This document shows, in pieces, positions 1,274 to 48,336 of a stretch of 48,336 bases of DNA. The position numbers were made by a program, and so were the translations under genes. How positions within the stretch are numbered: position 1 is the first letter of the stretch; each line of letters starts with the position of its first letter. The stretch comes from a virus (Duplodnaviria; Heunggongvirae; Uroviricota; Caudoviricetes): the IMG/VR virus record IMGVR_UViG_2874968258_000013; one strand, written 5' to 3'. Below the pieces are notes generated by a model. It ran no database searches. It saw only the letters and a program-made list of their open reading frames with translations, and was not told where the DNA came from.

Positions 1274-1566
1274 AAATGTCTCCCTGTTTTTTTATGGCTT
1301 ATGCAGTTTGCCATCCATGACGGAACGATACCGTATCCGCCTGTTTAGGTGTGGGCGATTGTAACAGCACGTCAACTGATGTCCAGACGCCCTGATTTGC
1401 TGATTTGATCATAGCCTGGTAATCGCCGCCCTGTAGGCTACTTGATTCTATAGAAACAGAAAAAGGCAAACGCAGCCTTTTCTACATTTTCAGAGTAACT
1501 CCCGCCAGTTGCGAGCAAAAAAGCCGCTACGCTTTAGCTATACGTGCTAATTCAAGAGAAGAGACC

Positions 1567-2499
1567 ATGGACAACGACAAAATTGATCAACACAGCGACG
1601 AAATTGAAGTTGAGAGCGAAGAAAAAGAGCGCGGCAAAAAAATAGAAATAGATGAAGACCGACTCCCCTCCCGGGCGATGGCAATTCATGAGCATATCCG
1701 CCAGGATGGTGAAAAAGAGCTGGAACGCGACGCAATGGCGCTACTGTGGTCAGCCATTGCGGCGGGTCTGTCGATGGGCGCTTCGTTACTGGCAAAAGGG
1801 ATATTTCATGTCGAACTGGAAGGTGTGCCGGGCAGCTTCTTACTGGAGAATCTCGGTTATACCTTTGGTTTTATTATCGTCATAATGGCCCGCCAGCAAT
1901 TATTTACCGAAAACACCGTGACTGCGGTACTACCCGTCATGCAAAAACCGACAATGAGCAACGTTGGCTTACTTATGCGGTTATGGGGAGTCGTGCTGCT
2001 GGGTAATATTCTCGGGACTGGTATTGCTGCGTGGGCATTTGAATATATGCCTATCTTCAATGAAGAAACTCGCGATGCATTTGTCAAAATCGGCATGGAT
2101 GTGATGAAGAACACCCCCAGCGAGATGTTTGCCAACGCGATCATTTCCGGCTGGCTGATCGCCACTATGGTATGGATGTTTCCTGCAGCAGGTGCGGCAA
2201 AGATTGTGGTGATTATATTGATGACCTGGCTTATTGCCCTAGGTGACACCACCCATATCGTGGTCGGTTCTGTTGAAATCCTCTATCTGGTGTTTAACGG
2301 TACGCTGCACTGGAGCGATTTCATCTGGCCCTTCGCACTACCTACTTTAGCGGGGAACATCTGCGGCGGCACCTTTATCTTCGCGTTAATGAGTCATGCA
2401 CAGATTCGTAACGACATGAGCAACAAGCGTAAAGCAGAAGCACGCCAAAAAGCAGAACGTGCGGAAAACATTAAGAAAAATGATAAAAACCCGGCATAA
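1567..2499 (+). CDS. yfdC: formate/nitrite transporter family inner membrane protein YfdC
   Basis: 310-aa ORF, multiple hydrophobic segments, recalled YfdC sequence; lies immediately upstream of argW as in K-12. Confidence 0.85.
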   Translation: MDNDKIDQHSDEIEVESEEKERGKKIEIDEDRLPSRAMAIHEHIRQDGEKELERDAMALLWSAIAAGLSMGASLLAKGIFHVELEGVPGSFLLENLGYTFGFIIVIMARQQLFTENTVTAVLPVMQKPTMSNVGLLMRLWGVVLLGNILGTGIAAWAFEYMPIFNEETRDAFVKIGMDVMKNTPSEMFANAIISGWLIATMVWMFPAAGAAKIVVIILMTWLIALGDTTHIVVGSVEILYLVFNGTLHWSDFIWPFALPTLAGNICGGTFIFALMSHAQIRNDMSNKRKAEARQKAERAENIKKNDKNPA

Positions 2500-2574
2500 A
2501 TGGCGAGGGTTTAAGCAATCAAGCGGCAGCGTACTTACCCCGCACTCCATTAGCGGGTATACTCATGCCGCATT

Positions 2575-2649
2575 GTCCTCTTAGTTAAATGGATATAACG
2601 AGCCCCTCCTAAGGGCTAATTGCAGGTTCGATTCCTGCAGGGGACACCA
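2575..2649 (+). tRNA. argW: tRNA-Arg (anticodon CCU)
   Basis: 75-nt sequence GTCCTCTTAGTTAAATGGATATAACGAGCCCCTCCTAAGGGCTAATTGCAGGTTCGATTCCTGCAGGGGACACCA read directly; anticodon loop CT-CCT-AA. Confidence 0.92.
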
Positions 2650-2810
2650 TTTATCAGTTCGCTCCCATCCGTACCAGTCCGCAAAATCCCCTGAATATCA
2701 AGCCTTCCGTATATTCACGGTTCGTCATGGTTCGCGTCAGATCGTTGACAGCCGCACTCCATGACGGGTAAAAAGTGGATAAAATAATTTTACCCACCGG
2801 ATTTTTACCC

Positions 2811-3968
2811 ATGCTCACCGTTAAGCAGATTGAAGCAGCAAAGCCGAAAGAAAAACCATACCGCCTTCTCGATGGTAATGGCCTGTACCTTTATGTTCCT
2901 GTATCCGGGAAAAAGGTATGGCAGCTTCGCTACAAGATTGACGGTAAGGAGAAAATCCTGACCGTCGGAAAATATCCGCTTATGACTTTGCAGGAAGCAA
3001 GGGATAAGGCATGGACTGCGAGGAAAGACATCTCGGTTGGCATCGTTCCGGTAAAGGCGAAAAAGGCTTCGTCTAACAACAATTCATTTAGTGCGATTTA
3101 CAAGGAATGGTACGAGCACAAGAAGCAAGTCTGGTCAGTAGGCTATGCAACTGAACTTGCCAAAATGTTTGATGACGACATTTTACCCATCATCGGCGGT
3201 CTTGAGATTCAGGATATTGAGCCGATGCAACTGCTGGAAGTAATCCGCAGATTTGAAGATCGCGGTGCAATGGAGCGAGCCAACAAAGCCCGCAGAAGAT
3301 GCGGCGAGGTTTTTCGTTACGCTATTGTCACCGGAAGGGCTAAATATAACCCGGCACCTGACCTTGCAGACGCCATGAAAGGATACCGCAAGAAGAACTT
3401 CCCGTTCCTTCCAGCAGACCAGATGCCTGCATTCAACAAAGCACTGGCAACATTTTCAGGAAGTATCGTATCGCTCATTGCGACCAAAGTTTTACGCTAC
3501 ACAGCCCTAAGAACAAAAGAGCTTCGTTCCATGCTATGGAAGAACGTCGATTTTGAAAACAGGATTATCACCATCGACGCCAGTGTGATGAAGGGACGCA
3601 AAATTCATGTGGTCCCGATGTCAGACCAGGTGGTTGAACTGCTCACTACGCTAAGCTCAATCACCAAACCAGTCTCAGAGTTTGTTTTTGCCGGGCGCAA
3701 CGATAAGAAGAAGCCAATCTGCGAGAACGCGGTATTGCTTGTGATCAAACAAATCGGCTATGAAGGTCTGGAAAGCGGTCACGGATTCAGGCATGAATTC
3801 AGCACGATTATGAACGAGCACGAATGGCCTGCTGACGCTATTGAAGTGCAGCTGGCACATGCCAACGGCGGATCTGTGCGCGGTATTTACAACCATGCTC
3901 AGTATCTCGATAAGCGCAGAGAAATGATGCAGTGGTGGGCGGATTGGCTTGATGAAAAAGTGGAGTAA
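2811..3968 (+). CDS. intS: P4-type tyrosine integrase (CPS-53/KpLE1 IntS-like)
   Basis: 385 aa from MLTVKQIEAAKPKEKPYRL; directly downstream of argW; ORF-track start at 2775 is probably upstream of the true ATG. Confidence 0.88.
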   Translation: MLTVKQIEAAKPKEKPYRLLDGNGLYLYVPVSGKKVWQLRYKIDGKEKILTVGKYPLMTLQEARDKAWTARKDISVGIVPVKAKKASSNNNSFSAIYKEWYEHKKQVWSVGYATELAKMFDDDILPIIGGLEIQDIEPMQLLEVIRRFEDRGAMERANKARRRCGEVFRYAIVTGRAKYNPAPDLADAMKGYRKKNFPFLPADQMPAFNKALATFSGSIVSLIATKVLRYTALRTKELRSMLWKNVDFENRIITIDASVMKGRKIHVVPMSDQVVELLTTLSSITKPVSEFVFAGRNDKKKPICENAVLLVIKQIGYEGLESGHGFRHEFSTIMNEHEWPADAIEVQLAHANGGSVRGIYNHAQYLDKRREMMQWWADWLDEKVE

Positions 3969-4120
3969 TCCGGACCGTACTTCTTTATCCAGGCATAAAG
4001 GCTGTGGGTAGTGATATCGAGACGTGTTGCAACGCTGGCAACAGAATAACCGCGATCAACAACCTGTTTGACTGCTTCAGTTTTAAACTCTTCGGGATAA
4101 CGCTTACCGCTCATGGGCAC
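3969..4120 (-). pseudogene. IS3-family transposase OrfA N-terminal fragment (about 50 aa)
   Basis: MSGKRYPEEFKTEAVKQVVDRGYSVASVATRLDITTHSLYAWIKKYGPD helix-turn-helix motif; similarity ends at the int stop codon. Confidence 0.55.
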
Positions 4121-4180
4121 CTCTCTTTAAGCCATCTTAAATGACTCTGAGGTGTCTGTTAAACCCGTGGCGATTCAAAA

Positions 4181-4630
4181 CTGCGTGTTACGTTCGCCCT
4201 GGACTGTTGCGATCGTGAAGCCATAGACTGGGCCGCAAGCACGGGAGGTTACGATAAAGCGACAGTGCAGGATGTCATGTTAGGAGCGATAGAAAAACGC
4301 TTTGGCGATAAAGTACCGGAACAGTCCATCCAGTGGCTGACAGATAACGGTTCAGCGTATAGAGCGCATGAAACACGGCAGTTCGCCAGAGAGTTGAATC
4401 TGGAGCCCTGCACAACGGCAATCAGCAGTCCTCAGAGTAATGGAATGGCAGAAAGGTTCGTGAAAACGATGAAGGAAGACTACATCGCGTTCATGCCGAA
4501 ACCGAATGTAAGAACGGCATTGCATAATCTTGCAGTGGCGATCGAACATTACAATGAAAACCATCCGCACAGTGCGCTGGGTTATCGCTCTCCGCGAGAA
4601 TATCGACGTCAGCGGGTAACGTTAACTTAA
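4181..4630 (+). pseudogene. IS2-like transposase OrfB C-terminal fragment (DDE domain 3' half)
   Basis: frame opens with [13 protein letters not shown]..., colinear with C-terminal half of IS2 InsD; no N-terminal half present. Confidence 0.6.
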
Positions 4631-4671
4631 GATACACCCCCTGTCTGGAAATAAGGGGGCAAGAACAATGA

Positions 4672-5414
4672 TCAGATTCCCTGGTGAGTAAGAATTTTAC
4701 TTTCTGAACTCCTCTGAGAGTATTGACTTGGAGAAACACCAAAATAACGTCTAAATACATAAGTAAAGTATGAGACACTGGCATAACCACAGACCTTAGC
4801 TACTTTACTAATAGGATAACAACGAGTGCTGAGTAAATATTCAGCCATTTGCATCCTCTCATCAAGTATGATCTTACTGAATGATACCCCCTCTTCTTTC
4901 AATTTCATCTTTAGTAAACTTTCGCTGAGATATAATCTTGATGATATATCCTTAAGACGCCATGGTGCAGATAAATCCGTATGAATAATCGTTTTAACTT
5001 TAGCCCTGTGCTTTTCAAACATCCAAACAGAAATACTCCAAATTGTTTTTCAGAAGAAAATGCAGAGAGACATGTAAAAGCAATAGACTCATCAAAAATT
5101 TCTATGTATTCAGCACAGTGATTAGCCCAACTAATTAATCCTTTAATTAAACTGAAGTCAGCAAAGTTTATTTTTAAATAAGATGGATATTCCCTACAAT
5201 CAGAAATATCCCTTAAGTTATTAGCTTTCAAATAGCGACTAATAAACTCAGCGCCAAAATCCGCCACTATCACTCTTTCAGGATATGTCAGGAAAAAATC
5301 TCTAGAGCTAGAGTCGACAAGTACAGATGAACCTCTCTCCAGAAACACACTCTCTTTTCCGAAATAAACATCAAAGGACTCCAAAATCAATATAACTGAA
5401 CATGTAGTTGCCAT
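4672..5414 (-). pseudogene. AraC-family transcriptional regulator (AppY/EnvY-like), frameshifted
   Basis: N-terminal ORF (4911-5423) and C-terminal HTH ORF (4672-5022) are in different frames and overlap; AT-rich. Confidence 0.55.
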
Positions 5415-39085: not shown

Positions 39086-39248
39086 GATTCCTCCTTGCTG
39101 CCAGTCGCAACCATTTTTTATCAACCAGGCTAGCGGTATATCCGAGCAGTGTTGGTATTTCGGATGGCTTCAGCTCAGGCTTACGCTTACGACGATTTGA
39201 TACTCTGTAGATGTGCCCGTTCATGACACGAATAAGCGGTGTAGCCAT
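39078..39248 (-). CDS. ninE: NinE
   Basis: 56-aa [59 protein letters not shown] translated by hand; TAATG overlap with ybcN stop. Confidence 0.75.
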   Translation of the reverse strand: MATPLIRVMNGHIYRVSNRRKRKPELKPSEIPTLLGYTASLVDKKWLRLAARRNHG

Positions 39249-39703
39249 TACGCCTCCTGCTTATCGCGCAGCTGCTGGTATTCACAGCTCTGCGGAATTG
39301 TCAGGTGGCAGCCGATATTCATCGCCCAGGCTTCGACTTTGCACAGGAAGATGTACATCTCGCCGGTTTCCAGCTCTGACGTATGGCGGAGGGATTGGAC
39401 GGTGGTGACCTCGCCGGACACGACATCTACACGGTCTTTGCTTTCGTAGCCGAGATAGGTGTGCTTCATCGCGTCTTTGACCCACTCAGGCGTAGCGAAG
39501 GTCTTGCCGCGGGCGATGAGATATTCGCTGATCTCCGTGTACCACATGTGGCTGAGCGCGTTCTGCGACAGGCTGCGCTTCTCGCGCCACGGCTTAACCT
39601 GCAGGCGTAAGCATTGCCCGGCATCCAGCAATGGCTGAATCTGCTGGCCGATGGCCGCGAAGTTACCGCGATGGAGTTTGATGCCGTCTACTGGCAGAGT
39701 CAT
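39248..39703 (-). CDS. ybcN: YbcN (DLP12-type nin-region protein)
   Basis: 151 aa, recalled YbcN sequence. Confidence 0.82.
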   Translation of the reverse strand: MTLPVDGIKLHRGNFAAIGQQIQPLLDAGQCLRLQVKPWREKRSLSQNALSHMWYTEISEYLIARGKTFATPEWVKDAMKHTYLGYESKDRVDVVSGEVTTVQSLRHTSELETGEMYIFLCKVEAWAMNIGCHLTIPQSCEYQQLRDKQEA

Positions 39704-39967
39704 ACGGCCTCCCTAACGGAAACCGCAGAATGCAGAAAATCGCAGGTGCATTTCTGCATCTGTGACAAGGTGATGAGTTCAGATTGTGGTCGCATTTAAG
39801 TCCCCTTAAATGCGCAGAAGTCACCGGAGTTGTTCAGGCTCCGATGAGAGGATTATGGCGGATTGATTACGATAAATCAAAACTATCTTGAAGCCAAAAC
39901 AGTGATCTTCGCTTTAAAAACCTTGTATACTTTCACCTAATCACAGCCAGAACTATGGATCTAACCA

Positions 39968-40345
39968 ATGACCAACAAAGAAAACAAAGATAAATATATT
40001 AACAAGTTCAAGAAAGAGCTTTCAAAATATATACAACCAACTGCTGGAGTGGACATTCAATTATTTAACTCTAAGGATGGTGGTGGTGTAATTAAAGCCA
40101 CTTTGAATAGAAGTGGAAAAAGAAAATCATCTATTGCTGGTAATTTTACTAAATTAGGTGAGGCAATTACCTCGAGTGGGCAGAGGGTTTTTGGTGGTGA
40201 TCTATCAAATGTGAATTTTTACGGAACAAATACGATTTTTGATGGAGATACAATATTTTTAATTAAATCACCTGATTCAGAGGAGTGGTCATCACAAAAA
40301 GCTTCCAAAGACGTAGAGGGCATCGTATTTGGAGGGAAAAAATGA
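39968..40345 (+). CDS. hypothetical soluble protein (125 aa, Gly/Lys-rich), first gene of a low-GC two-gene cassette
   Basis: AT-rich ORF with no recognisable family; stop overlaps next start (ATGA). Confidence 0.55.
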   Translation: MTNKENKDKYINKFKKELSKYIQPTAGVDIQLFNSKDGGGVIKATLNRSGKRKSSIAGNFTKLGEAITSSGQRVFGGDLSNVNFYGTNTIFDGDTIFLIKSPDSEEWSSQKASKDVEGIVFGGKK

Positions 40346-40770
40346 TTAACATTACTACTAAGGATGGCACTCAAGTCAGTGGTGAAGTAAGAGATCTAGT
40401 AATTCTTCTTGAAACTGATGGAAAAACGGTGTCTGATTATTTGCAGCCAATCCCTCCCAAAAAAGATACACACTGGAGCATGATTTTCATTCCGGTAGCA
40501 ATTTATATACTACTTAATCTTGTATACATTATTGCTCACCCATTATTTCCTGAAAAATATCTAAAAACATCAACATCTATATTTCTATTCATTTCCTTCA
40601 TATTAAGTGCAATAGTAGCATATTTTGTTTTCCATAAGCATAAATCTGCCACTCTATCCATATGCAGCTTAGTGTTCTTAGTGTTAATTGTAGGTGCTAA
40701 CGTAGGGTTTATCAGTTACAGCGACCTAACACAAAAAGCGACGCAAAAATTAGATAGTTTGTCTAAATAA
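40342..40770 (+). CDS. hypothetical small membrane protein (142 aa, soluble N-terminal 45 aa plus 3 predicted TM helices)
   Basis: hydrophobic stretches WSMIFIPVAIYILLNLVYII, SIFLFISFILSAIVAYFVF, LSICSLVFLVLIVGANVGFI; followed by hairpin 40778-40798. Confidence 0.55.
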   Translation: MINITTKDGTQVSGEVRDLVILLETDGKTVSDYLQPIPPKKDTHWSMIFIPVAIYILLNLVYIIAHPLFPEKYLKTSTSIFLFISFILSAIVAYFVFHKHKSATLSICSLVFLVLIVGANVGFISYSDLTQKATQKLDSLSK

Positions 40771-40932
40771 TTATGTTGCCATGCGAAGTATGCATGGCTG
40801 CATGTCTGCCTTCCATTTAAAATGGGCTAAGACCTATAACCCTAAATATTATTCTTTATTATCTTCTTTACCACTTCGGTGATGCTGCCAACTTACTGAT
40901 TTAGTGTATGATGGTGTTTTTGAGGTGCTCCA

Positions 40933-41108
40933 GTGGCTTCTGTTTCTATCAGCTGTCCCTCCTGTTCAGCTACTGACGGGGTGGTGCGTAACGGCAAAAG
41001 CACTGCCGGACATCAGCGCTATCTCTGCTCTCACTGCCGTAAAACATGGCAACTGCAGTTCACTTACACCGCTTCTCAACCCGGTACGCACCAGAAAATC
41101 ATTGATAT
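40933..41108 (+). pseudogene. insA: IS1 insA truncated by IS21 insertion
   Basis: InsA frame diverges after ...QKIID at the IS21 junction. Confidence 0.85.
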
Positions 41109-41209
41109 TGTCAGCGCCAGTGATATAAGACGGTAATTCGCCATTTGGATTGTCCGCTCCACCCAACATGTTGTTTCCTTAAGGTTCTCACACCAGAAAG
41201 GACATCAAC

Positions 41210-43179
<1,970 letters not shown>

Positions 43180-43260
43180 CGAAAGTATTTAGCGGGCATG
43201 AAAATGGCAAATAACGGTCAAACATCGTGGCGTTGACAATATGGCCATGAATGGCGTTGG

Positions 43261-43764
43261 ATGCCGGGCAACTGCACGCATTATGGGCGTTGGCCTCAAC
43301 ACGATTTTACGTCACTTAAAAAACTCAGGCCGCAGTCGGTAACCTCGCGCATACAGCCGGGCAGTGACGTCATCGTCTGCGCGGAAATGGACGAACAGTG
43401 GGGCTATGTCGGGGCTAAATCGCGCCAGCGCTGGCTGTTTTACGCGTATGACAGTCTCCGGAAGACGGTTGTTGCGCACGTATTCGGTGAACGCACTATG
43501 GCGACGCTGGGGCGTCTTATGAGCCTGCTGTCACCCTTTGACGTGGTGATATGGATGACGGATGGCTGGCCGCTGTATGAATCCCGCCTGAAGGGAAAGC
43601 TGCACGTAATCAGCAAGCGATATACGCAGCGAATTGAGCGGCATAACCTGAATCTGAGGCAGCACCTGACACGGCTGGGACGGAAGTCGCTGTCGTTCTC
43701 AAAATCGGTGGAGCTGCATGACAAAGTCATCGGGCATTATCTGAACATAAAACACTATCAATAA
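43261..43764 (+). CDS. insB: IS1 InsB (copy 3)
   Basis: 167-aa ORF in the right part of the split IS1. Confidence 0.85.
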
Positions 43765-43779
43765 GTTGGAGTCATTACC

Positions 43780-43841
43780 CGCTTGCAGTAACGGCGAAAG
43801 GGGCAATGACAGCGCTGCCATGTCGACAAGAACTGGAATAG
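43780..43841 (+). pseudogene. cscK: 3' terminal fragment of fructokinase gene cscK
   Basis: frame (A)LAVTAKGAMTALPCRQELE-stop begins at the IS1 junction; continues the cscK fragment at 48117-48336. Confidence 0.7.
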
Positions 43842-43912
43842 TGAGAAGTAAACGGCGAAGTCGCTCTTATCTCTAAATAGGACGTGAATTTTTTAACGAC
43901 AGGTAGGTAATT

Positions 43913-45160
43913 ATGGCACTGAATATTCCATTCAGAAATGCGTACTATCGTTTTGCATCCAGTTACTCATTTCTCTTTTTTATTTCCTGGTCGCTGTGGT
44001 GGTCGTTATACGCTATTTGGCTGAAAGGACATCTAGGGTTGACAGGGACGGAATTAGGTACACTTTATTCGGTCAACCAGTTTACCAACATTCTATTTAT
44101 GATGTTCTACGGCATCGTTCAGGATAAACTCGGTCTGAAGAAACCGCTCATCTGGTGTATGAGTTTCATCCTGGTCTTGACCGGACCGTTTATGATTTAA
44201 GTTTATGAACCGTTACTGCAAAGCAATTTTTCTGTAGGTCTAATTCTGGGAGCGCTCTTTTTTGGCCTGGGGTATCTGGCGGGATGCGGTTTGCTTGACA
44301 GCTTCACCGAAAAAATGGCGCGAAATTTTCATTTCGAATATGGAACAGCGCGCGCCTGGGGATCTTTTGGCTATGCTATTGGCGCGTTCTTTGCCGGCAT
44401 ATTTTTTAGTATCAGTCCCCATATCAACTTCTGGTTGGTCTCGCTATTTGGCGCTGTATTTATGATGATCAACATGTGTTTTAAAGATAAGGATCACCAG
44501 TGCGTAGCGGCGGATGCGGGAGGGGTAAAAAAAGAGGATTTTATCGCAGTTTTCAAGGATCGAAACTTCTGGGTTTTCGTCATATTTATTGTGGGGACGT
44601 GGTCTTTCTATAACATTTTTGATCAACAACTTTTTCCTGTCTTTTATGCAGGTTTATTCGAATCACACGATGTAGGAACGCGCCTGTATGGTTATCTCAA
44701 CTCATTCCAGGTGGTACTCGAAGCGCTATGCATGGCGATTATTCCTTTCTTTGTGAATCGGGTAGGGCCAAAAAATGCATTACTTATCGGTGTTGTGATT
44801 ATGGCGTTGCGTATCCTTTCCTGCGCGCTGTTCGTTAACCCCTGGATTATTTCATTAGTGAAGCTGTTACATGCCATTGAGGTTCCACTTTGTGTCATAT
44901 CCGTCTTCAAATACAGCGTGGCAAATTTTGATAAGCGCCTGTCGTCGACGATCTTTCTGATTGGTTTTCAAATTGCCAGTTCGCTTGGGATTGTGCTGCT
45001 TTCAACGCCGACTGGGATACTCTTTGACCACACAGGCTACCAGACAGTTTTCTTCGCAATTTCGGGTATTGTCTGCCTAATGTTGCTATTTGGCATTTTC
45101 TTCCTGAGTAAAAAACGCGAGCAAATAGTTATGGAAACGCCTGTACCTTCAGCAATATAG
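43913..45160 (+). pseudogene. cscB: sucrose:H+ symporter CscB with in-frame premature stop (TAA at 44198-44200)
   Basis: two in-frame ORFs (43913-44200, 44291-45160) collinear with recalled CscB; ...LTGPFMI-stop-VYEPLLQ... Confidence 0.8.
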
Positions 45161-45600
45161 ACGTAAACTTTTCCGGTTGTTGTCGATATCTCCCTATCCC
45201 TCAACCGGAAAATAATAATACTAAAGTGCTTAGCCCGGCTAATAATCACCTAATCCAAACGCCTCATTCATGTTCTGGTACAGTCGCTCAAATGTACTTC
45301 AGATGCGCGGTTCGCTGATTTCCAGGACATTGTCGTCATTCAGCGACCTGTCCCGTGTATCACGGTCCTGCGAATTCATCAAGGAATGCATTGCGGAGTG
45401 AAGTATCGAGTCACGCCATATTTCGCTATCAGGATTCTGTGTGATGGTTACATCGCCCGGCCCAGGGCTGTTTAGTCATCAGCGCTTTCTGACAGTGCTG
45501 AGATTTCAACCTGTTGCAGTAAAAATGAGTAGATATAAGGCAAGTGTGCTGCCAAACCCATCTTTTACGGGGTGAAGGTAGATTTCGTTTGAAGGGTATC

Positions 45601-45615
45601 TGGTGTCCCCTGCAG
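45601..45615 (-). repeat. second copy of argW 3' end (att core, 15 bp CTGCAGGGGACACCA), inverted relative to argW
   Basis: exact 15-mer identity with 2635-2649 on the opposite strand. Confidence 0.75.
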
Positions 45616-45688
45616 ACATCTACTTGAGGCGGCAGGGGATTGATTGGAATGCTGTTTTTTAGATTTGAAAAATATTTTACCCGCTATT

Positions 45689-45889
45689 TTACCCATTGGC
45701 GCGGCTTAAGAGCTTATTTTTGAATTCACAATGGTCACGATATAACCATCTTGCTCGTCCGTGGATAACTTTGGCTTTAGGCAGGTCGCCGGACTTAATC
45801 CGGTCATAGATGAAGGTCTTACCGAAGCCAGTATCAGCCATGATGAATTTCAAATCAACCAGTGAATCAGGTTGTAGTTCGTGTTGCAT
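45689..45889 (-). CDS. AlpA-family phage/island transcriptional regulator (small HTH protein)
   Basis: 66 aa; LVDLKFIMADTGFGKTFIYDRIKSGDLPKAKVIHGRARWL resembles AlpA/Phage_AlpA motif. Confidence 0.65.
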   Translation of the reverse strand: MQHELQPDSLVDLKFIMADTGFGKTFIYDRIKSGDLPKAKVIHGRARWLYRDHCEFKNKLLSRANG

Positions 45890-46011
45890 GAGTGCTATCT
45901 CCGAATATGGAATCGAACCTGCAAATCAGGCAATAAAAAGCCGCATTGATGCAGCAATGGTAGGTCTGGATATCTTGAGAAATGAACAGGCCTCATCGAG
46001 TGTGAGGCGGG

Positions 46012-46356
46012 TTAGTCCTTGCGTAGCTCGCTGATTCTTCTGTAAGTCTCTGGTGCTTTGTTCCCGTACGTCTTCATTTCAGACTTCAACAGAGCAACGA
46101 GTGAATCCCATTCGTTGAGGATTCCTTTGAATGCCGGAACGCGCTTTGCAACCTTGTCGAATGAATCTCTGATTTCTGGAATCTGCTCAACAAGTGCAAC
46201 GCATCGCCGAAAGTCTGCTGCGTCATGGGGAGCGCCGAAGTGATGACCATAGATATTCTTTTTCAGGCCACATGCGATTGAGGCAAGAGTTGCGCTACTG
46301 ATGCCGACATCGCCAGTTGATTGCCATTTCAAAACCTTCATAGCCAAATCTGACAT
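46012..46356 (-). CDS. hypothetical protein (114 aa)
   Basis: ORF upstream of and co-oriented with the AlpA-like gene; no recognisable family. Confidence 0.45.
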   Translation of the reverse strand: MSDLAMKVLKWQSTGDVGISSATLASIACGLKKNIYGHHFGAPHDAADFRRCVALVEQIPEIRDSFDKVAKRVPAFKGILNEWDSLVALLKSEMKTYGNKAPETYRRISELRKD

Positions 46357-46597
46357 TTCTTGTCTCCATAAAACAAAACTCGCCGTAGCGAGCTCAGATA
46401 AAAGAAATCCCCGTCAGTGCGAGGATGCTGTTCATTGCTGCTATACACTTTTTTGCTCTCAACGTAAGCGGTAGCCCATTCTGTTGGGTTGGTCAGTTGC
46501 TTTTAGGAAATGCTCTTTACCCCTTAAACGTCGGCTGAAAGAGCTAAAATCCATGCAAAAAATTTACGCAATTTTGTGTATTATTGTGCAGTAAGTA

Positions 46598-47200
46598 ATG
46601 AGCTATTTTCTGTGCAAAAAATGGATGATAAATTTGTCCGGGGCAGGAAAAATTTTATGGGCGCTAAACATGAAAAAAGATTCGTATCCTTATTTGATTT
46701 GCATGACAGTTTCAGGGCTGATCTTTATTTTCCTTTTCTTCTGGTGGCGGGCAGATATCTACAGGGTCACGTTTCTTAATCAGAGTATATCCCACTATTA
46801 CATTCTGTTTAGCATGGGAATAGCTTTTCTGTTATCTCTGTTTTGGGTTAAGAAGGGGATAGTAAAACAAAGCGGCTGGAAGAGTCTGTCAGCATACCTT
46901 AAGGTTTATGCAGGGATATGCATATTTTCTGGATTTTTTCTGATTATACCCCTTACAACACTAACTTATTTTTTGCCTGGAGAGACATCGTCTTATGTTG
47001 CACCGTATCGGTATACTTCCGGTAGTTCAAAAAGTTGTTCTGGAGCTGAGGTGGATGACCCCGATCTACATGAGAATATTCGCATTTGCTATCCGTATGG
47101 CAATTATGAGTACGATAATATTATCTATGTTGAAAAGAAAATTAATACATTAGGTGCGGTAGTGACATATGCACAGACCGCGCGTGATGATACTGAATGA
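46598..47200 (+). CDS. hypothetical membrane protein (3 predicted TM helices plus about 75-aa C-terminal soluble region)
   Basis: AT-rich ORF; true start may be an internal Met (about 46670); divergent from the 114-aa gene. Confidence 0.45.
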   Translation: MSYFLCKKWMINLSGAGKILWALNMKKDSYPYLICMTVSGLIFIFLFFWWRADIYRVTFLNQSISHYYILFSMGIAFLLSLFWVKKGIVKQSGWKSLSAYLKVYAGICIFSGFFLIIPLTTLTYFLPGETSSYVAPYRYTSGSSKSCSGAEVDDPDLHENIRICYPYGNYEYDNIIYVEKKINTLGAVVTYAQTARDDTE

Positions 47201-47363
47201 GATAGTATATAGCGGGCAAGTTTTAGTTAATTTATCGAGGTAATATAATTTACCTCGACTCGTTTATTCTGGTATGAATATTTCGCTTTACGATCGATTT
47301 TTATCTGATGATATCATGCGGTTTTCATATACTGACTTACTGTCTTTTGGTAATGACTCCAAC

Positions 47364-47867
47364 TTATTGATAGTGTTTTATGTTCAGATAATGCCCGATG
47401 ACTTTGTCATGCAGCTCCACCGATTTTGAGAACGACAGCGACTTCCGTCCCAGCCGTGCCAGGTGCTGCCTCAGATTCAGGTTATGCCGCTCAATTCGCT
47501 GCGTATATCGCTTGCTGATTACGTGCAGCTTTCCCTTCAGGCGGGATTCATACAGCGGCCAGCCATCCGTCATCCATATCACCACGTCAAAGGGTGACAG
47601 CAGGCTCATAAGACGCCCCAGCGTCGCCATAGTGCGTTCACCGAATACGTGCGCAACAACCGTCTTCCGGAGACTGTCATACGCGTAAAACAGCCAGCGC
47701 TGGCGCGATTTAGCCCCGACATAGCCCCACTGTTCGTCCATTTCCGCGCAGACGATGACGTCACTGCCCGGCTGTATGCGCGAGGTTACCGACTGCGGCC
47801 TGAGTTTTTTAAGTGACGTAAAATCGTGTTGAGGCCAACGCCCATAATGCGTGCAGTTGCCCGGCAT
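47364..47867 (-). CDS. insB: IS1 InsB
   Basis: 167-aa ORF within IS1. Confidence 0.9.
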
Positions 47868-48061
47868 CCAACGCCATTCATGGCCATATCAATGATTTTC
47901 TGGTGCGTACCGGGTTGAGAAGCGGTGTAAGTGAACTGCAGTTGCCATGTTTTACGGCAGTGAGAGCAGAGATAGCGCTGATGTCCGGCAGTGCTTTTGC
48001 CGTTACGCACCACCCCGTCAGTAGCTGAACAGGAGGGACAGCTGATAGAAACAGAAGCCAC
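47786..48061 (-). CDS. insA: IS1 InsA
   Basis: 91-aa ORF within IS1. Confidence 0.92.
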
Positions 48062-48116
48062 TGGAGCACCTCAAAAACACCATCATACACTAAATCAGTA
48101 AGTTGGCAGCATCACC

Positions 48117-48336
48117 CTGCAAGCGCTCCGCAACGTTGAGCGAGATCGATAATTCGTCGCATTTCTCTCTCATCTGTAGATAATCCCGTAGAGGACAGAC
48201 CTGTGAGTAACCCGGCAACGAACGCATCTCCCGCCCCCGTGCTATCGACACAATTCACAGACATTCCAGCAAAATGGTGAACTTGTCCTCGATAACAGAC
48301 CACCACCCCTTCTGCACCTTTAGTCACCAACAGCAT
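48117..48336 (-). pseudogene. cscK: fructokinase gene cscK truncated by IS1 (5' part continues beyond window end)
   Basis: frame ...MLLVTKGAEGVVVCYRGQ...DLAQRCGALA runs into the IS1 terminal repeat; ribokinase-family GAGD motif. Confidence 0.8.

What the first reader, a model, noticed from the sequence alone, without database searches (positions are those of the whole stretch)
45689..47200. AlpA-like regulator, unknown 114-aa protein and divergent 3-TM membrane protein next to the att core copy
A three-gene AT-rich module sits between the att core copy and IS1 copy 4: a 114-aa ORF followed by an AlpA-family HTH gene on one strand and a divergently oriented membrane protein (3 TM helices plus soluble C-terminus). 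In the orientation of the att core, the AlpA gene reads toward the core; in an excised circle this would place it directly upstream of intS across attP, a CP4-57-like AlpA-int regulatory layout split between the two prophage ends. The 114-aa and membrane proteins match nothing I recognise and could be cargo (exclusion/defense or conversion).
Basis: partly seen in the sequence, partly recalled or inferred. Interest (0 to 1): 0.55.

Follow-up and report, generated by a model that had tools for sequence, protein, structure and literature searches.

The report
TorI excisionase end of argW prophage
The "AlpA-like regulator" is TorI, the well-studied excision factor of argW-integrated prophages. Its two neighbours are uncharacterised accessory genes already sequenced in phage 434, so the finding is largely ordinary, apart from a small membrane protein that may be an anti-phage exclusion gene.

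Summary
The three ORFs exist at the stated coordinates. The 66-aa ORF (45689-45889, -) is 100% identical to TorI (PDB 1Z4H), the recombination directionality factor of KplE1/CPS-53, HK620 and Sf6. It fails the Pfam AlpA cut-off (12.7 vs 21 bits).

The layout with torI at attR and intS at attL is the published KplE1-type recombination module. There, TorI helps excision and represses intS; it does not activate it.

ORF114 and the membrane protein are mosaic lambdoid "exo-xis region" genes, 94-98% identical to phage 434 (ORF114, CPT_434_36). They occur independently of torI: each is in about 17-18% of complete E. coli genomes, and all three occur together in about 2%.

The real membrane protein probably starts at 46670 (176 aa). 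It has 3 TM helices and a periplasmic beta domain with two invariant Cys. It has its own terminator and a conserved upstream leader. Homologues sit in the P2 gpA-gpQ (old/tin) defence hotspot, so it is a candidate exclusion moron, but this is untested. Neither protein matches a known fold or family.

In this Shigella sonnei-like window, an IS1 inversion has flipped the whole end segment. This is shown by a split 9-bp target duplication.

The parts
2575..2649 (+). argW tRNA-Arg(CCT), the integration target
   Evidence: ARAGORN
2635..2650 (+). attL core CTGCAGGGGACACCAT (16 of 16)
   Evidence: Exact match to the published KplE1 core
2657..2750 (+). Five TorI-site motifs (GTTCG 2657, GTCCG 2677, GTTCG 2720 and 2730, GATCG 2740), followed by the PintS -35 TTGACA at 2745
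   Evidence: Motif scan and alignment to K-12 attL. The sites are defined in PMC2951348.
2811..3968 (+). intS integrase (385 aa, 2 differences from K-12 IntS)
43780..43788 (.). CGCTTGCAG, one half of a split IS1 9-bp target duplication; left limit of the inverted segment
   Evidence: Reverse complement of 48117-48125. It is single-copy between cscK and cscB in intact E. coli.
45600..45615 (-). attR core copy (15 of 16), inverted relative to attL
   Evidence: (pair I10)
45674..45694 (-). Two GGGTAAAAT repeats, resembling integrase arm-type sites and overlapping the torI stop codon
   Evidence: Read from the sequence. The TAAA arm-type motif is described in PMC2951348. Assignment as arm sites is inferred.
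45689..45889 (-). torI: recombination directionality factor (excisionase) and TorR inhibitor
   Evidence: 100% identical to PDB 1Z4H. RefSeq annotates it as torI. PHROG 66, excisionase.
45909..45924 (-). Exact 16-nt copy of the argW T-arm (TTGCAGGTTCGATTCC) just upstream of torI; contains a GTTCG motif
   Evidence: pair I15. Conserved in K-12. Motif scan.
45940..46008 (-). Two hairpins downstream of ORF114. 45940-45955 plus a T-run corresponds to t'I of phage 434; 45990-46008 is the second. This stretch is a mosaic joint.
   Evidence: Homology to K-12 ends at 46008 and homology to 434 starts at about 45921-45936. Many E. coli matches stop near 45944.
46012..46356 (-). ORF114, an exo-xis region gene of lambdoid phages (phage 434 ORF114); all-alpha, function unknown
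46376..46426 (-). Tandem terminator-like hairpins upstream of ORF114, equivalent to tL4 of phage 434
   Evidence: z = -2.75
46626..46634 (+). TGATAAATT, an extended -10-like motif conserved upstream of the membrane gene in lambdoid, P2-like and Cedecea contexts (putative promoter)
   Evidence: Alignment of upstream regions. The promoter assignment is inferred; the consensus scan did not call it.
46670..47200 (+). 176-aa inner-membrane protein: 3 TM helices and a periplasmic beta domain with invariant Cys147 and Cys164 (200-aa numbering). RefSeq annotates it from 46598 as 200 aa.
47235..47258 (+). Intrinsic terminator of the membrane gene
   Evidence: (z = -3.9)
47349..48116 (-). IS1 copy forming the right limit of the inverted segment
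48117..48125 (.). CTGCAAGCG, the other half of the split 9-bp IS1 target duplication, next to cscK
40878..43779 (+). IS1 copy in the opposite orientation, itself split by a 2125-bp insertion; left partner of the inversion

Best explanation
The segment is the attR-proximal end of a defective lambdoid prophage integrated in argW. It consists of two unrelated layers.

(1) The KplE1/HK620-type recombination module. TorI (45689-45889) is the recombination directionality factor. It binds GTTCG-type sites in attL, bends the DNA and, together with IntS made from the other prophage end, directs attL x attR excision. It also represses PintS and can inhibit the TorR response regulator.

(2) Two mosaic 'exo-xis region' accessory genes that are also present in phage 434.
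- ORF114 is the last gene of the N-antiterminated PL (early-left) transcript before xis/torI. It is bracketed by terminators.
- The membrane gene is divergently oriented and self-contained, with its own conserved leader and terminator. It encodes a 176-aa inner-membrane protein (N-terminus in the cytoplasm, 3 TM helices, disulfide-bearing periplasmic beta domain). It behaves as a moron. Its most likely role is a prophage-expressed envelope function such as superinfection exclusion. This last step is inferred, at about 35-40% probability.

In this Shigella sonnei-like genome, IS1 has inverted the block cscB'-attR-torI-ORF114-membrane gene and deleted the region from PL/immunity through exo. As a result attL and attR are in inverted orientation and torI and ORF114 have lost PL. 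IntS and TorI could at most invert the roughly 43 kb between the sites, not excise it.
For: TorI identity:
- 66 of 66 residues match PDB 1Z4H. RefSeq annotates torI in all best E. coli matches.
- PHROG 66, excisionase, E = 2.7e-8.

Recombination module intact at sequence level:
- The 16-nt core in argW, five TorI motifs and the -35 box are as in K-12. IntS has 2 of 385 differences from K-12. The attR core matches 15 of 16.
- Published mechanism: PMC2951348 and PMC3509656.

Mosaic origin of the other two genes:
- 94-98% DNA identity to phage 434, where the order is int-xis-t'I-ORF114-ORF55-tL4-[membrane gene, divergent]-traR...exo-bet-gam.
- The same membrane gene sits beside lambda-type int-xis at the ybhC attB site in O157:H7 and O104:H4.
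- Distribution among 5426 complete E. coli genomes: torI piece 1643, ORF114 963, membrane gene 915, all three contiguous 116.
- ORF114 homologues in Citrobacter and Cronobacter are always the last or nearly last early-left gene before the integrase.

Membrane protein:
- Homologues start at M25 and have invariant C147 and C164.
- The AF2 model has pLDDT 86, with 3 helices and a 5-strand domain.
- The positive-inside pattern is KK at the N-terminus and 5 K in loop 2, with an acidic C-terminal domain.
- It has its own terminator. About 115 nt of upstream leader is conserved between lambdoid and Salmonella P2-like contexts.
- Salmonella and Klebsiella homologues lie between gpA and portal gpQ. That interval is the P2 old/tin defence hotspot defined in PMC9122126.

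Inversion:
- The 9-bp CGCTTGCAG at 43780-43788 is the reverse complement of 48117-48125. Each abuts one of two inverted IS1 copies. The 9-mer is single-copy between cscK and cscB in intact genomes.
- No exo, bet, N or cI genes remain.
Against: - No experiment or expression data exist for this window.
- PtorI is uncharacterised even in K-12.
- The membrane-gene promoter is only a conserved motif and was not picked up by the consensus scan.
- The membrane protein has no PADLOC hit and no PDB or BFVD fold match. It is not homologous to P22 SieA.
- Some homologues are lone chromosomal genes beside LysR regulators in Klebsiella, Enterobacter and Cedecea, with no phage genes nearby. This fits a general membrane role as well as it fits exclusion.
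- In the P2-like prophages the gene always occupies the same gpA-proximal slot. It might therefore be a lineage-conserved gene rather than variable defence cargo.
Confidence: 0.85

Rival explanations
1. First reader's model. The HTH protein is an AlpA-family transcriptional activator. After circularisation it sits upstream of intS across attP and switches on integrase expression and excision, as in CP4-57.
For: There is weak HTH-core similarity to PF05930 (12.7 bits, E = 0.12) and to K-12 AlpA (6 of 20 residues). In intact relatives the gene order in the circle would indeed be torI-attP-intS.
Against: The score is below the Pfam gathering score, whereas real AlpA scores 83.9 bits. The protein is TorI, a structurally and genetically characterised RDF. 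TorI and IntS repress PintS through sites I4 and I5 next to the -35 box, and those sites are present here. intS has its own promoter inside attL. In CP4-57, alpA lies about 1.2 kb downstream of intA at the same end and is not split across att. In this window att is inverted, so no circle forms.
Confidence: 0.03
2. The three genes form one functional cargo or defence module specific to argW-integrated elements. For example, torI could act as the HTH regulator of a defence system, as suggested by its mad1 (MADS) hit.
For: TorI hits PADLOC mad1 at 7.6e-14. The three genes are contiguous in 116 E. coli genomes.
Against: ORF114 and the membrane gene occur without torI, next to other int/xis types. 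torI occurs without them in K-12 and in most of the 1643 genomes that carry it. ORF114 and the membrane gene occur apart from each other: HK022 has only ORF114 and O157:H7 has only the membrane gene at that locus. Terminators separate all three genes. The neighbours have no PADLOC hits.
Confidence: 0.03
3. The membrane protein is not an anti-phage factor. It would instead be a general envelope or stress-related small membrane protein that phages picked up, or a phage-development factor for the lytic cycle. Its P2-hotspot location would then be incidental.
For: Lone chromosomal copies lie next to LysR regulators and metabolic genes in Klebsiella, Enterobacter and Cedecea. There is no hit to any defence model. 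The gene holds a fixed position in the P2-like prophages. Only 3 of 50,697 sequenced phage records carry it.
Against: The gene is divergent and self-terminated, with low GC, inside an otherwise co-directional early operon. Its leader is conserved across unrelated phage types. It is retained intact in heavily decayed prophages: this window, the O157:H7 cryptic prophage at the ybhC lambda attB site, and L001. [quoted passage not shown]
Confidence: 0.35

Closest known systems
TorI / KplE1 (CPS-53) recombination module of E. coli K-12; identical RDFs HkaC of HK620 and P18 of Sf6
   Same: The protein is 100% identical to TorI. The 16-nt core in argW, the five TorI sites and the PintS overlap in attL, and IntS (99.5% identical) are the same. 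The RDF lies next to attR and reads toward the core.
   Different: Here the attR end has been flipped by IS1, so attL and attR are inverted. The upstream neighbours are phage 434-type ORF114 and the membrane gene, instead of K-12 yfdT/ypdJ.
Phage 434 early-left end (GenBank M60848 ORF114; OL657226 CPT_434_33 and CPT_434_36), i.e. the lambdoid exo-xis region
   Same: 94-98% nucleotide identity over ORF114, the terminators corresponding to t'I and tL4, and the divergent membrane gene. The order and orientation are the same.
   Different: Phage 434 has lambda-type xis-int downstream instead of torI-attR, and an extra ORF55 between ORF114 and tL4. The studied lambda exo-xis genes (ea8.5, ea22, orf60a/61/63) are not homologous to these two.
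AlpA of CP4-57 (Pfam PF05930)
   Same: A small (66-70 aa) winged-helix/HTH protein of an integrative element that promotes excision.
   Different: TorI fails the family threshold, and only about 20 residues of the HTH core align. alpA lies at the same end as intA. AlpA is annotated as a transcriptional activator in the K-12 record, whereas TorI is an architectural RDF and a repressor of intS.
P22 SieA, a prophage-expressed 3-TM inner-membrane exclusion protein of 162-164 aa
   Same: Similar size, three TM segments, a single gene with its own promoter in a temperate enterobacterial phage, and inner-membrane location (predicted for the protein here).
   Different: There is no sequence or profile similarity (hhalign probability 0.2%). 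SieA lacks the Cys-containing C-terminal beta domain. No exclusion phenotype is known for the protein here.
P2 old/tin hotspot cargo (gpA-gpQ interval)
   Same: Homologues at 56-70% identity occupy this interval in Salmonella and Klebsiella P2-like prophages.
   Different: The window copy is in a lambdoid prophage. The family is absent from PADLOC 2.0, and defence activity is untested.

Membership tests
AlpA family (Pfam PF05930 Phage_AlpA) | Scores at or above the Pfam gathering threshold (21 bits) | tested here: not met
   12.7 bits, E = 0.12. Positive control: K-12 AlpA scores 83.9 bits.
AlpA family (Pfam PF05930 Phage_AlpA) | Full-length pairwise similarity to CP4-57 AlpA | tested here: not met
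   BLASTP aligns only 20 residues, 30% identity.
TorI-type RDF (KplE1/HK620/Sf6 recombination module) | Sequence identity to TorI, whose structure is solved | tested here: met
   66 of 66 residues identical to PDB 1Z4H, E = 6.6e-43.
TorI-type RDF (KplE1/HK620/Sf6 recombination module) | Gene adjacent to attR and reading toward the 16-nt argW core | tested here: met
   The stop codon at 45689 is 74 nt from the core at 45600-45615.
TorI-type RDF (KplE1/HK620/Sf6 recombination module) | Cognate IntS at attL, with a promoter overlapped by five TorI sites | tested here: met
   Motifs at 2657, 2677, 2720, 2730 and 2740, TTGACA at 2745, and IntS with 2 of 385 differences.
TorI-type RDF (KplE1/HK620/Sf6 recombination module) | attL and attR in direct orientation, so that recombination excises the element | tested here: not met
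   The cores are inverted (pair I10) because of an IS1 inversion. This is a property of this genome, not of the protein.
TorI-type RDF (KplE1/HK620/Sf6 recombination module) | Stimulates IntS-dependent excision; inhibits TorR | not testable with these tools
   Established for the identical protein in PMC2951348 and PMC3509656.
Lambda Xis family (Pfam PF07825 Exc) | Profile match | tested here: not met
   No PF07825 hit at E <= 1. Phage 434 Xis scores 139 bits.
Lambdoid exo-xis region genes (ORF114, membrane gene) | Located between xis/RDF and exo in the early-left arm of lambdoid (pro)phages | tested here: met
   Seen in ECC-1470, phage 434, O157:H7 and O104:H4. In the window itself exo is deleted.
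Lambdoid exo-xis region genes (ORF114, membrane gene) | Homology to a characterised exo-xis gene (ea8.5, ea22, orf60a/61/63) | tested here: not met
   No Pfam or NCBIfam hit. The only matches are PHROGs of unknown function, 1229 and 1416.
Moron (autonomous prophage-expressed cargo gene): membrane gene | Own terminator, opposite orientation to the flanking operon, and lower GC | tested here: met
   Terminator at 47235-47258. The gene is divergent from ORF114 and traR. GC is 38.8% against 51.1%.
Moron (autonomous prophage-expressed cargo gene): membrane gene | Own promoter active in the lysogen | tested here: inconclusive
   The leader is conserved and carries a TGnTAAnTT motif across phage types, but there was no consensus promoter call and there are no expression data.
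Moron (autonomous prophage-expressed cargo gene): membrane gene | Presence/absence polymorphism among otherwise related phages | tested here: met
   HK022 and the Stx phages match ORF114 only. Phages 434, 2B8 and mEp332 carry the membrane gene.
Known anti-phage defence or exclusion families (PADLOC 2.0; P22 SieA) | Profile or sequence match | tested here: not met
   No PADLOC hit at E <= 1. hhalign against SieA gives probability 0.2%. There are no significant PDB or BFVD fold matches.
MADS defence system (mad1) | mad1-like HTH accompanied by the other mad genes | tested here: not met
   TorI hits mad1 at 7.6e-14, but its neighbours have no PADLOC hits. The hit reflects the shared HTH fold only.

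The most novel reading that the evidence does not exclude
The 176-aa protein (46670-47200) would found a new, small, Enterobacterales-restricted family of single-gene exclusion or defence proteins. The family has 61 representatives at 50% identity among 1.84 billion proteins. Its members have 3 TM helices and a disulfide-bonded periplasmic beta domain. The gene travels with its own promoter-leader between the lambdoid exo-xis region, the P2 gpA-gpQ (old/tin) defence hotspot and chromosomal islets. It would block DNA entry of incoming phages at the periplasmic face of the inner membrane.
Probability: 0.3. Interest if true: 0.55.

Novelty: already known. Interest (0 to 1): 0.27.

Why it matters
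For genome annotation, the finding resolves to a textbook element: the TorI/IntS recombination module, plus lambdoid mosaic genes first sequenced in phage 434.

Two points have some value.
1. The IS1 inversion that puts attL and attR in inverted orientation explains mechanistically why this Shigella prophage remnant is locked in place. It predicts TorI/IntS-driven inversion instead of excision.
2. The membrane protein is carried by about 17% of complete E. coli genomes, including O157:H7 and O104:H4, and has no family, fold or function assigned. Its appearance in the P2 defence hotspot with a conserved portable leader makes it a cheap and reasonable candidate for a phage-exclusion screen.

Tried and rejected
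- Pfam and NCBIfam scans gave no family for ORF114 or the membrane protein. PADLOC gave none for either.
- PDB sequence-profile searches with both family alignments gave nothing below E = 0.06.
- Foldseek against BFVD gave no hit with E <= 1e-3. The afdb50 library was unavailable.
- A profile search with the ORF114 family found only proteins labelled 'hypothetical' across Enterobacterales.
- The exhaustive HMM search with the membrane family found only 61 representatives, all with the same architecture. The one exception is a 3074-aa repeat protein whose weak matches look spurious.
- The idea that the protein is a fourth SieA type was rejected.
- Rfam found nothing in 45100-47400.
- Literature searches by RefSeq accession and for 'mEp332' gave nothing functional. 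The exo-xis modelling paper does not mention a membrane protein or phage 434.
- My first estimate of torI prevalence, 3994 genomes, was inflated by flanking chromosomal DNA in the query. It was corrected to 1643.
- The second IS1 target duplication expected for a simple two-IS inversion (40869-40877 against 47340-47348) is not complementary. Further IS1 rearrangement or deletion must have occurred, and I did not reconstruct it.
Full report
**Observation**

- 45689-45889 (-), 66 aa
- 46012-46356 (-), 114 aa
- 46598-47200 (+), 200 aa

An IS1 copy follows at 47349-48116, with InsA/InsB ORFs on the - strand. The stretch has 42.6% GC against 51.1% for the window, and the membrane gene has 38.8%.

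The only tRNA in the window is argW, tRNA-Arg(CCT), at 2575-2649. It is followed by intS. The published 16-nt KplE1 core CTGCAGGGGACACCAT is at 2635-2650. Its second copy, matching 15 of 16 bases, is at 45600-45615 but on the opposite strand (pair I10).

**The 66-aa protein is TorI, not an AlpA-family member**

It is 66/66 identical to PDB 1Z4H, 'Tor inhibition protein'. RefSeq annotates it as torI in every close E. coli match.

Family scans gave the following:

| Model | Query | Score | Cut-off |
|---|---|---|---|
| PF05930 Phage_AlpA | TorI | 12.7 bits | 21 |
| PF12728 HTH_17 | TorI | 16.9 bits | 27 |
| PF05930 Phage_AlpA | K-12 AlpA (control) | 83.9 bits | 21 |
| PF07825 Exc | phage 434 Xis (control) | 139 bits | 23 |

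BLASTP of TorI against AlpA aligns only 20 residues. PHROG 66, 'excisionase and transcriptional regulator', matches at 2.7e-8. A PADLOC mad1 hit (7.6e-14) reflects only the shared HTH, because no neighbour has a defence-model hit.

**What is published about TorI**

Panis et al. 2010 (PMC2951348) and 2012 (PMC3509656) establish the following:
- TorI is the recombination directionality factor of KplE1/CPS-53. It is identical to HK620 HkaC and Sf6 P18.
- In this phage sub-family, intS sits at attL and the RDF gene at attR.
- PintS overlaps attL.
- IntS and TorI both repress intS. TorI acts through sites I4 and I5 next to the -35 box.
- Control of excision rests on RDF expression.

In the window, all five TorI motifs (2657, 2677, 2720, 2730, 2740) and the TTGACA at 2745 are present as in K-12. 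IntS differs from K-12 IntS at 2 of 385 residues. Two GGGTAAAAT repeats lie between torI and the core.

In CP4-57 itself, alpA lies about 1.2 kb downstream of intA at the same end.

**The segment is inverted here**

Two complete E. coli genomes, Res13-Lact-PEA14-20 and ECC-1470, have the order cscK-cscB-attR-torI-ORF114-[membrane gene]-traR. In ECC-1470 this continues through exo, bet, gam, kil and cIII.

In the window, cscK (48112 onward, - strand) and cscB (43913-45160, + strand) point at each other's far sides. BLAST of ECC-1470 against the window shows that window 48336-48117 (reversed) and window 43780-47348 both abut the same 9 bp. CGCTTGCAG at 43780-43788 is the reverse complement of 48117-48125. 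Each copy touches one of two inverted IS1 copies.

This is the signature of an IS1 insertion between cscK and cscB followed by IS1-IS1 inversion, or of intramolecular replicative transposition. The other pair of flanks is not complementary. Nothing of traR, exo, bet, N, cI, O or P remains between ninB (39248-39703) and the left IS1. Further IS1-mediated deletion must therefore have occurred.

Consequences (inferred):
- attL and attR are inverted, so IntS and TorI cannot excise the element.
- ORF114 and torI have lost the PL promoter.

The exact 200-aa protein belongs to a Shigella sonnei cluster of 873 sequences. This, together with the IS1 load, indicates a S. sonnei-like source.

**ORF114**

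It matches PHROG 1229, of unknown function, at 1.8e-51. It has no Pfam, NCBIfam or PADLOC hit.

The DNA is 94% identical to phage 434 (GenBank M60848, 'ORF114'). There it lies between terminators tL4 and t'I, directly upstream of xis in the PL direction. HK022, the mEp phages and many Stx phages also carry it. The window has terminator-like hairpins at the corresponding places: 46376-46426 upstream, and 45990-46008 and 45940-45955 downstream.

Homologues of 113-124 aa occur across Enterobacterales: Salmonella, Citrobacter, Enterobacter, Klebsiella, Cronobacter, Pantoea, Serratia, Yersinia and Plesiomonas. All are unnamed. In the contexts I examined, the gene is the last or nearly last early-left gene before integrases of several types.

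I conclude that ORF114 is an N-dependent, delayed-early 'exo-xis region' accessory gene. Its function is unknown, and by position and orientation it is not prophage cargo.

**The membrane protein**

PHROG 1416, of unknown function, matches only residues 113-200.

*Start codon.* Every homologue below about 80% identity is 169-180 aa and starts at M25, with the sequence MKK(D/Y)SYP. The 24-aa extension carries 3 of the 6 differences from the 97%-identical E. coli form P0002. The corresponding DNA in Salmonella is conserved but is not an open reading frame. The real start is therefore most likely 46670.

*Topology.* The hydropathy scan gives three TM segments. The N-terminus has KK, loop 2 has 5 K and no acidic residue, and the C-terminal 74 residues have a net charge of -6. 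C147 and C164 (numbering of the 200-aa annotated form) are invariant within a CSGA...ICYP motif. The AF2 model (pLDDT 86) has three long helices, a short strand in loop 1 and a five-strand C-terminal domain. This supports an N-in/C-out inner-membrane protein with a disulfide-bonded periplasmic domain (inferred).

*Known folds and families.* No PDB or BFVD fold match is meaningful, and the PDB profile search is negative. There is no homology to P22 SieA, itself a 3-TM exclusion protein of 162-164 aa.

*Family size.* The family is tiny: 61 representatives at 50% identity among 1.84 billion proteins.

**Context of the membrane gene**

It has its own terminator at 47235-47258, with z = -3.9. It is divergent from the flanking early-left genes in every lambdoid copy examined: ECC-1470, phage 434, O157:H7 and O104:H4. 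In the last two it sits next to lambda-type int-xis at the ybhC attB site.

It is in 915 of 5426 complete E. coli genomes, but in only 3 phages among 50,697 phage records.

Homologues at 56-70% identity in Salmonella and Klebsiella michiganensis lie in P2-like prophages between replication gene A and portal gene Q. That interval is exactly the one Rousset et al. 2022 defined as the P2 old/tin anti-phage hotspot (PMC9122126).

About 115 nt upstream of the start codon is conserved between the lambdoid and the Salmonella P2-like copies. A TG(A/G)TAA(N)TT extended -10-like motif about 40 nt upstream also recurs in a Cedecea chromosomal copy.

More distant homologues (44-56% identity) in Klebsiella, Enterobacter and Cedecea are lone chromosomal genes, several next to LysR regulators, with no phage genes around.

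Together this fits a self-contained moron that hops between phage accessory hotspots. Superinfection exclusion at the inner membrane is the most economical guess, at about 30-40%, but nothing tests it. The chromosomal copies keep a non-defence role open.

**Are the three genes a module?**

No. The counts among 5426 complete E. coli genomes are:

| Piece | Genomes |
|---|---|
| torI piece (45616-46008) | 1643 |
| ORF114 | 963 |
| Membrane gene | 915 |
| All three contiguous | 116 |

K-12 KplE1 has yfdT/ypdJ in place of ORF114, and its homology to the window stops at 46008. Homology to phage 434 starts at about 45921-45936. Many E. coli matches break at about 45944. The roughly 90-bp terminator-bearing stretch between torI and ORF114 is therefore a mosaic joint shared by different recombination modules.

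**Verdict**

The element is already known.

The residual interest lies in two uncharacterised proteins, chiefly the membrane protein, and in the IS1-driven inversion that locks the prophage remnant in place.

Noticed in passing
window 45909-45924 (- strand); also argW 2620-2635: An exact 16-nt copy of the argW T-arm (TTGCAGGTTCGATTCC) lies 20 nt upstream of the torI start codon and is conserved in K-12 KplE1. Together with the att core it reconstitutes the last 31 nt of argW, split by torI. It also contains a GTTCG TorI-site motif. It may be a relic of a longer ancestral attP, or an autoregulatory operator.
   Followed up: partly
window 43780-43788, 48117-48125, IS1 40878-43779 and 47349-48116: An IS1-mediated inversion of the block cscB'-attR-torI-ORF114-membrane gene, shown by a split 9-bp target duplication. 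The second pair of IS1 flanks (40869-40877 and 47340-47348) is not complementary, so additional IS1 deletion or rearrangement occurred.
   Followed up: yes
window 43913-45160: The sucrose permease gene cscB is broken into two ORFs (43913-44200 and 44291-45160). It is an intact 415-aa gene in E. coli ECC-1470. cscK is separated from it by the inversion, so the csc regulon is inactivated.
   Followed up: partly
window 41114-43238: The left IS1 copy is itself interrupted by a 2125-bp insertion carrying overlapping 390-aa and 266-aa ORFs. The organisation looks like IS21 istA/istB, but I did not test the family.
   Followed up: no
window 39704-40877: The whole region from replication/immunity through PL to exo of the lambdoid prophage is missing between ninB (39248-39703) and the IS1. 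In its place are two + strand ORFs (39968-40345 and 40285-40770) that match only PHROGs of unknown function (18061, 16940).
   Followed up: no
proteins P0107, P0108, P0125, P0126, P0089, P0091: The N-terminal 50-70 residues of ORF114 occur fused, at 95-99% identity, to fragments annotated as Kil, Ea22-like, ERF or dATP/dGTP pyrophosphohydrolase in other E. coli genomes. These look like deletion or recombination joints within decaying exo-xis regions.
   Followed up: no
L021-L023, positions 1281-4623: In Klebsiella michiganensis P2-like prophages, the gpA-gpQ hotspot carries a 790-aa AAA_16 protein and a 279-aa protein next to the membrane-protein homologue. This pair is a possible two-gene defence system.
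   Followed up: no
L007, L009, L016 and L017, positions 4100-4890: In Salmonella P2-like prophages, the membrane-gene homologue is preceded on the same strand by conserved ORFs of 81 (or 123) aa and 119 aa with no Pfam hits. L008 lacks both, and L018 has only the 81-aa ORF. They may be separate cargo or may be co-expressed with it.
   Followed up: no
protein P0183: A 3074-aa repeat protein gives ten weak matches to the Cys-motif region of the membrane-protein profile (positions 122-158). Its repeats have a different Cys spacing, so the match is probably spurious.
   Followed up: partly
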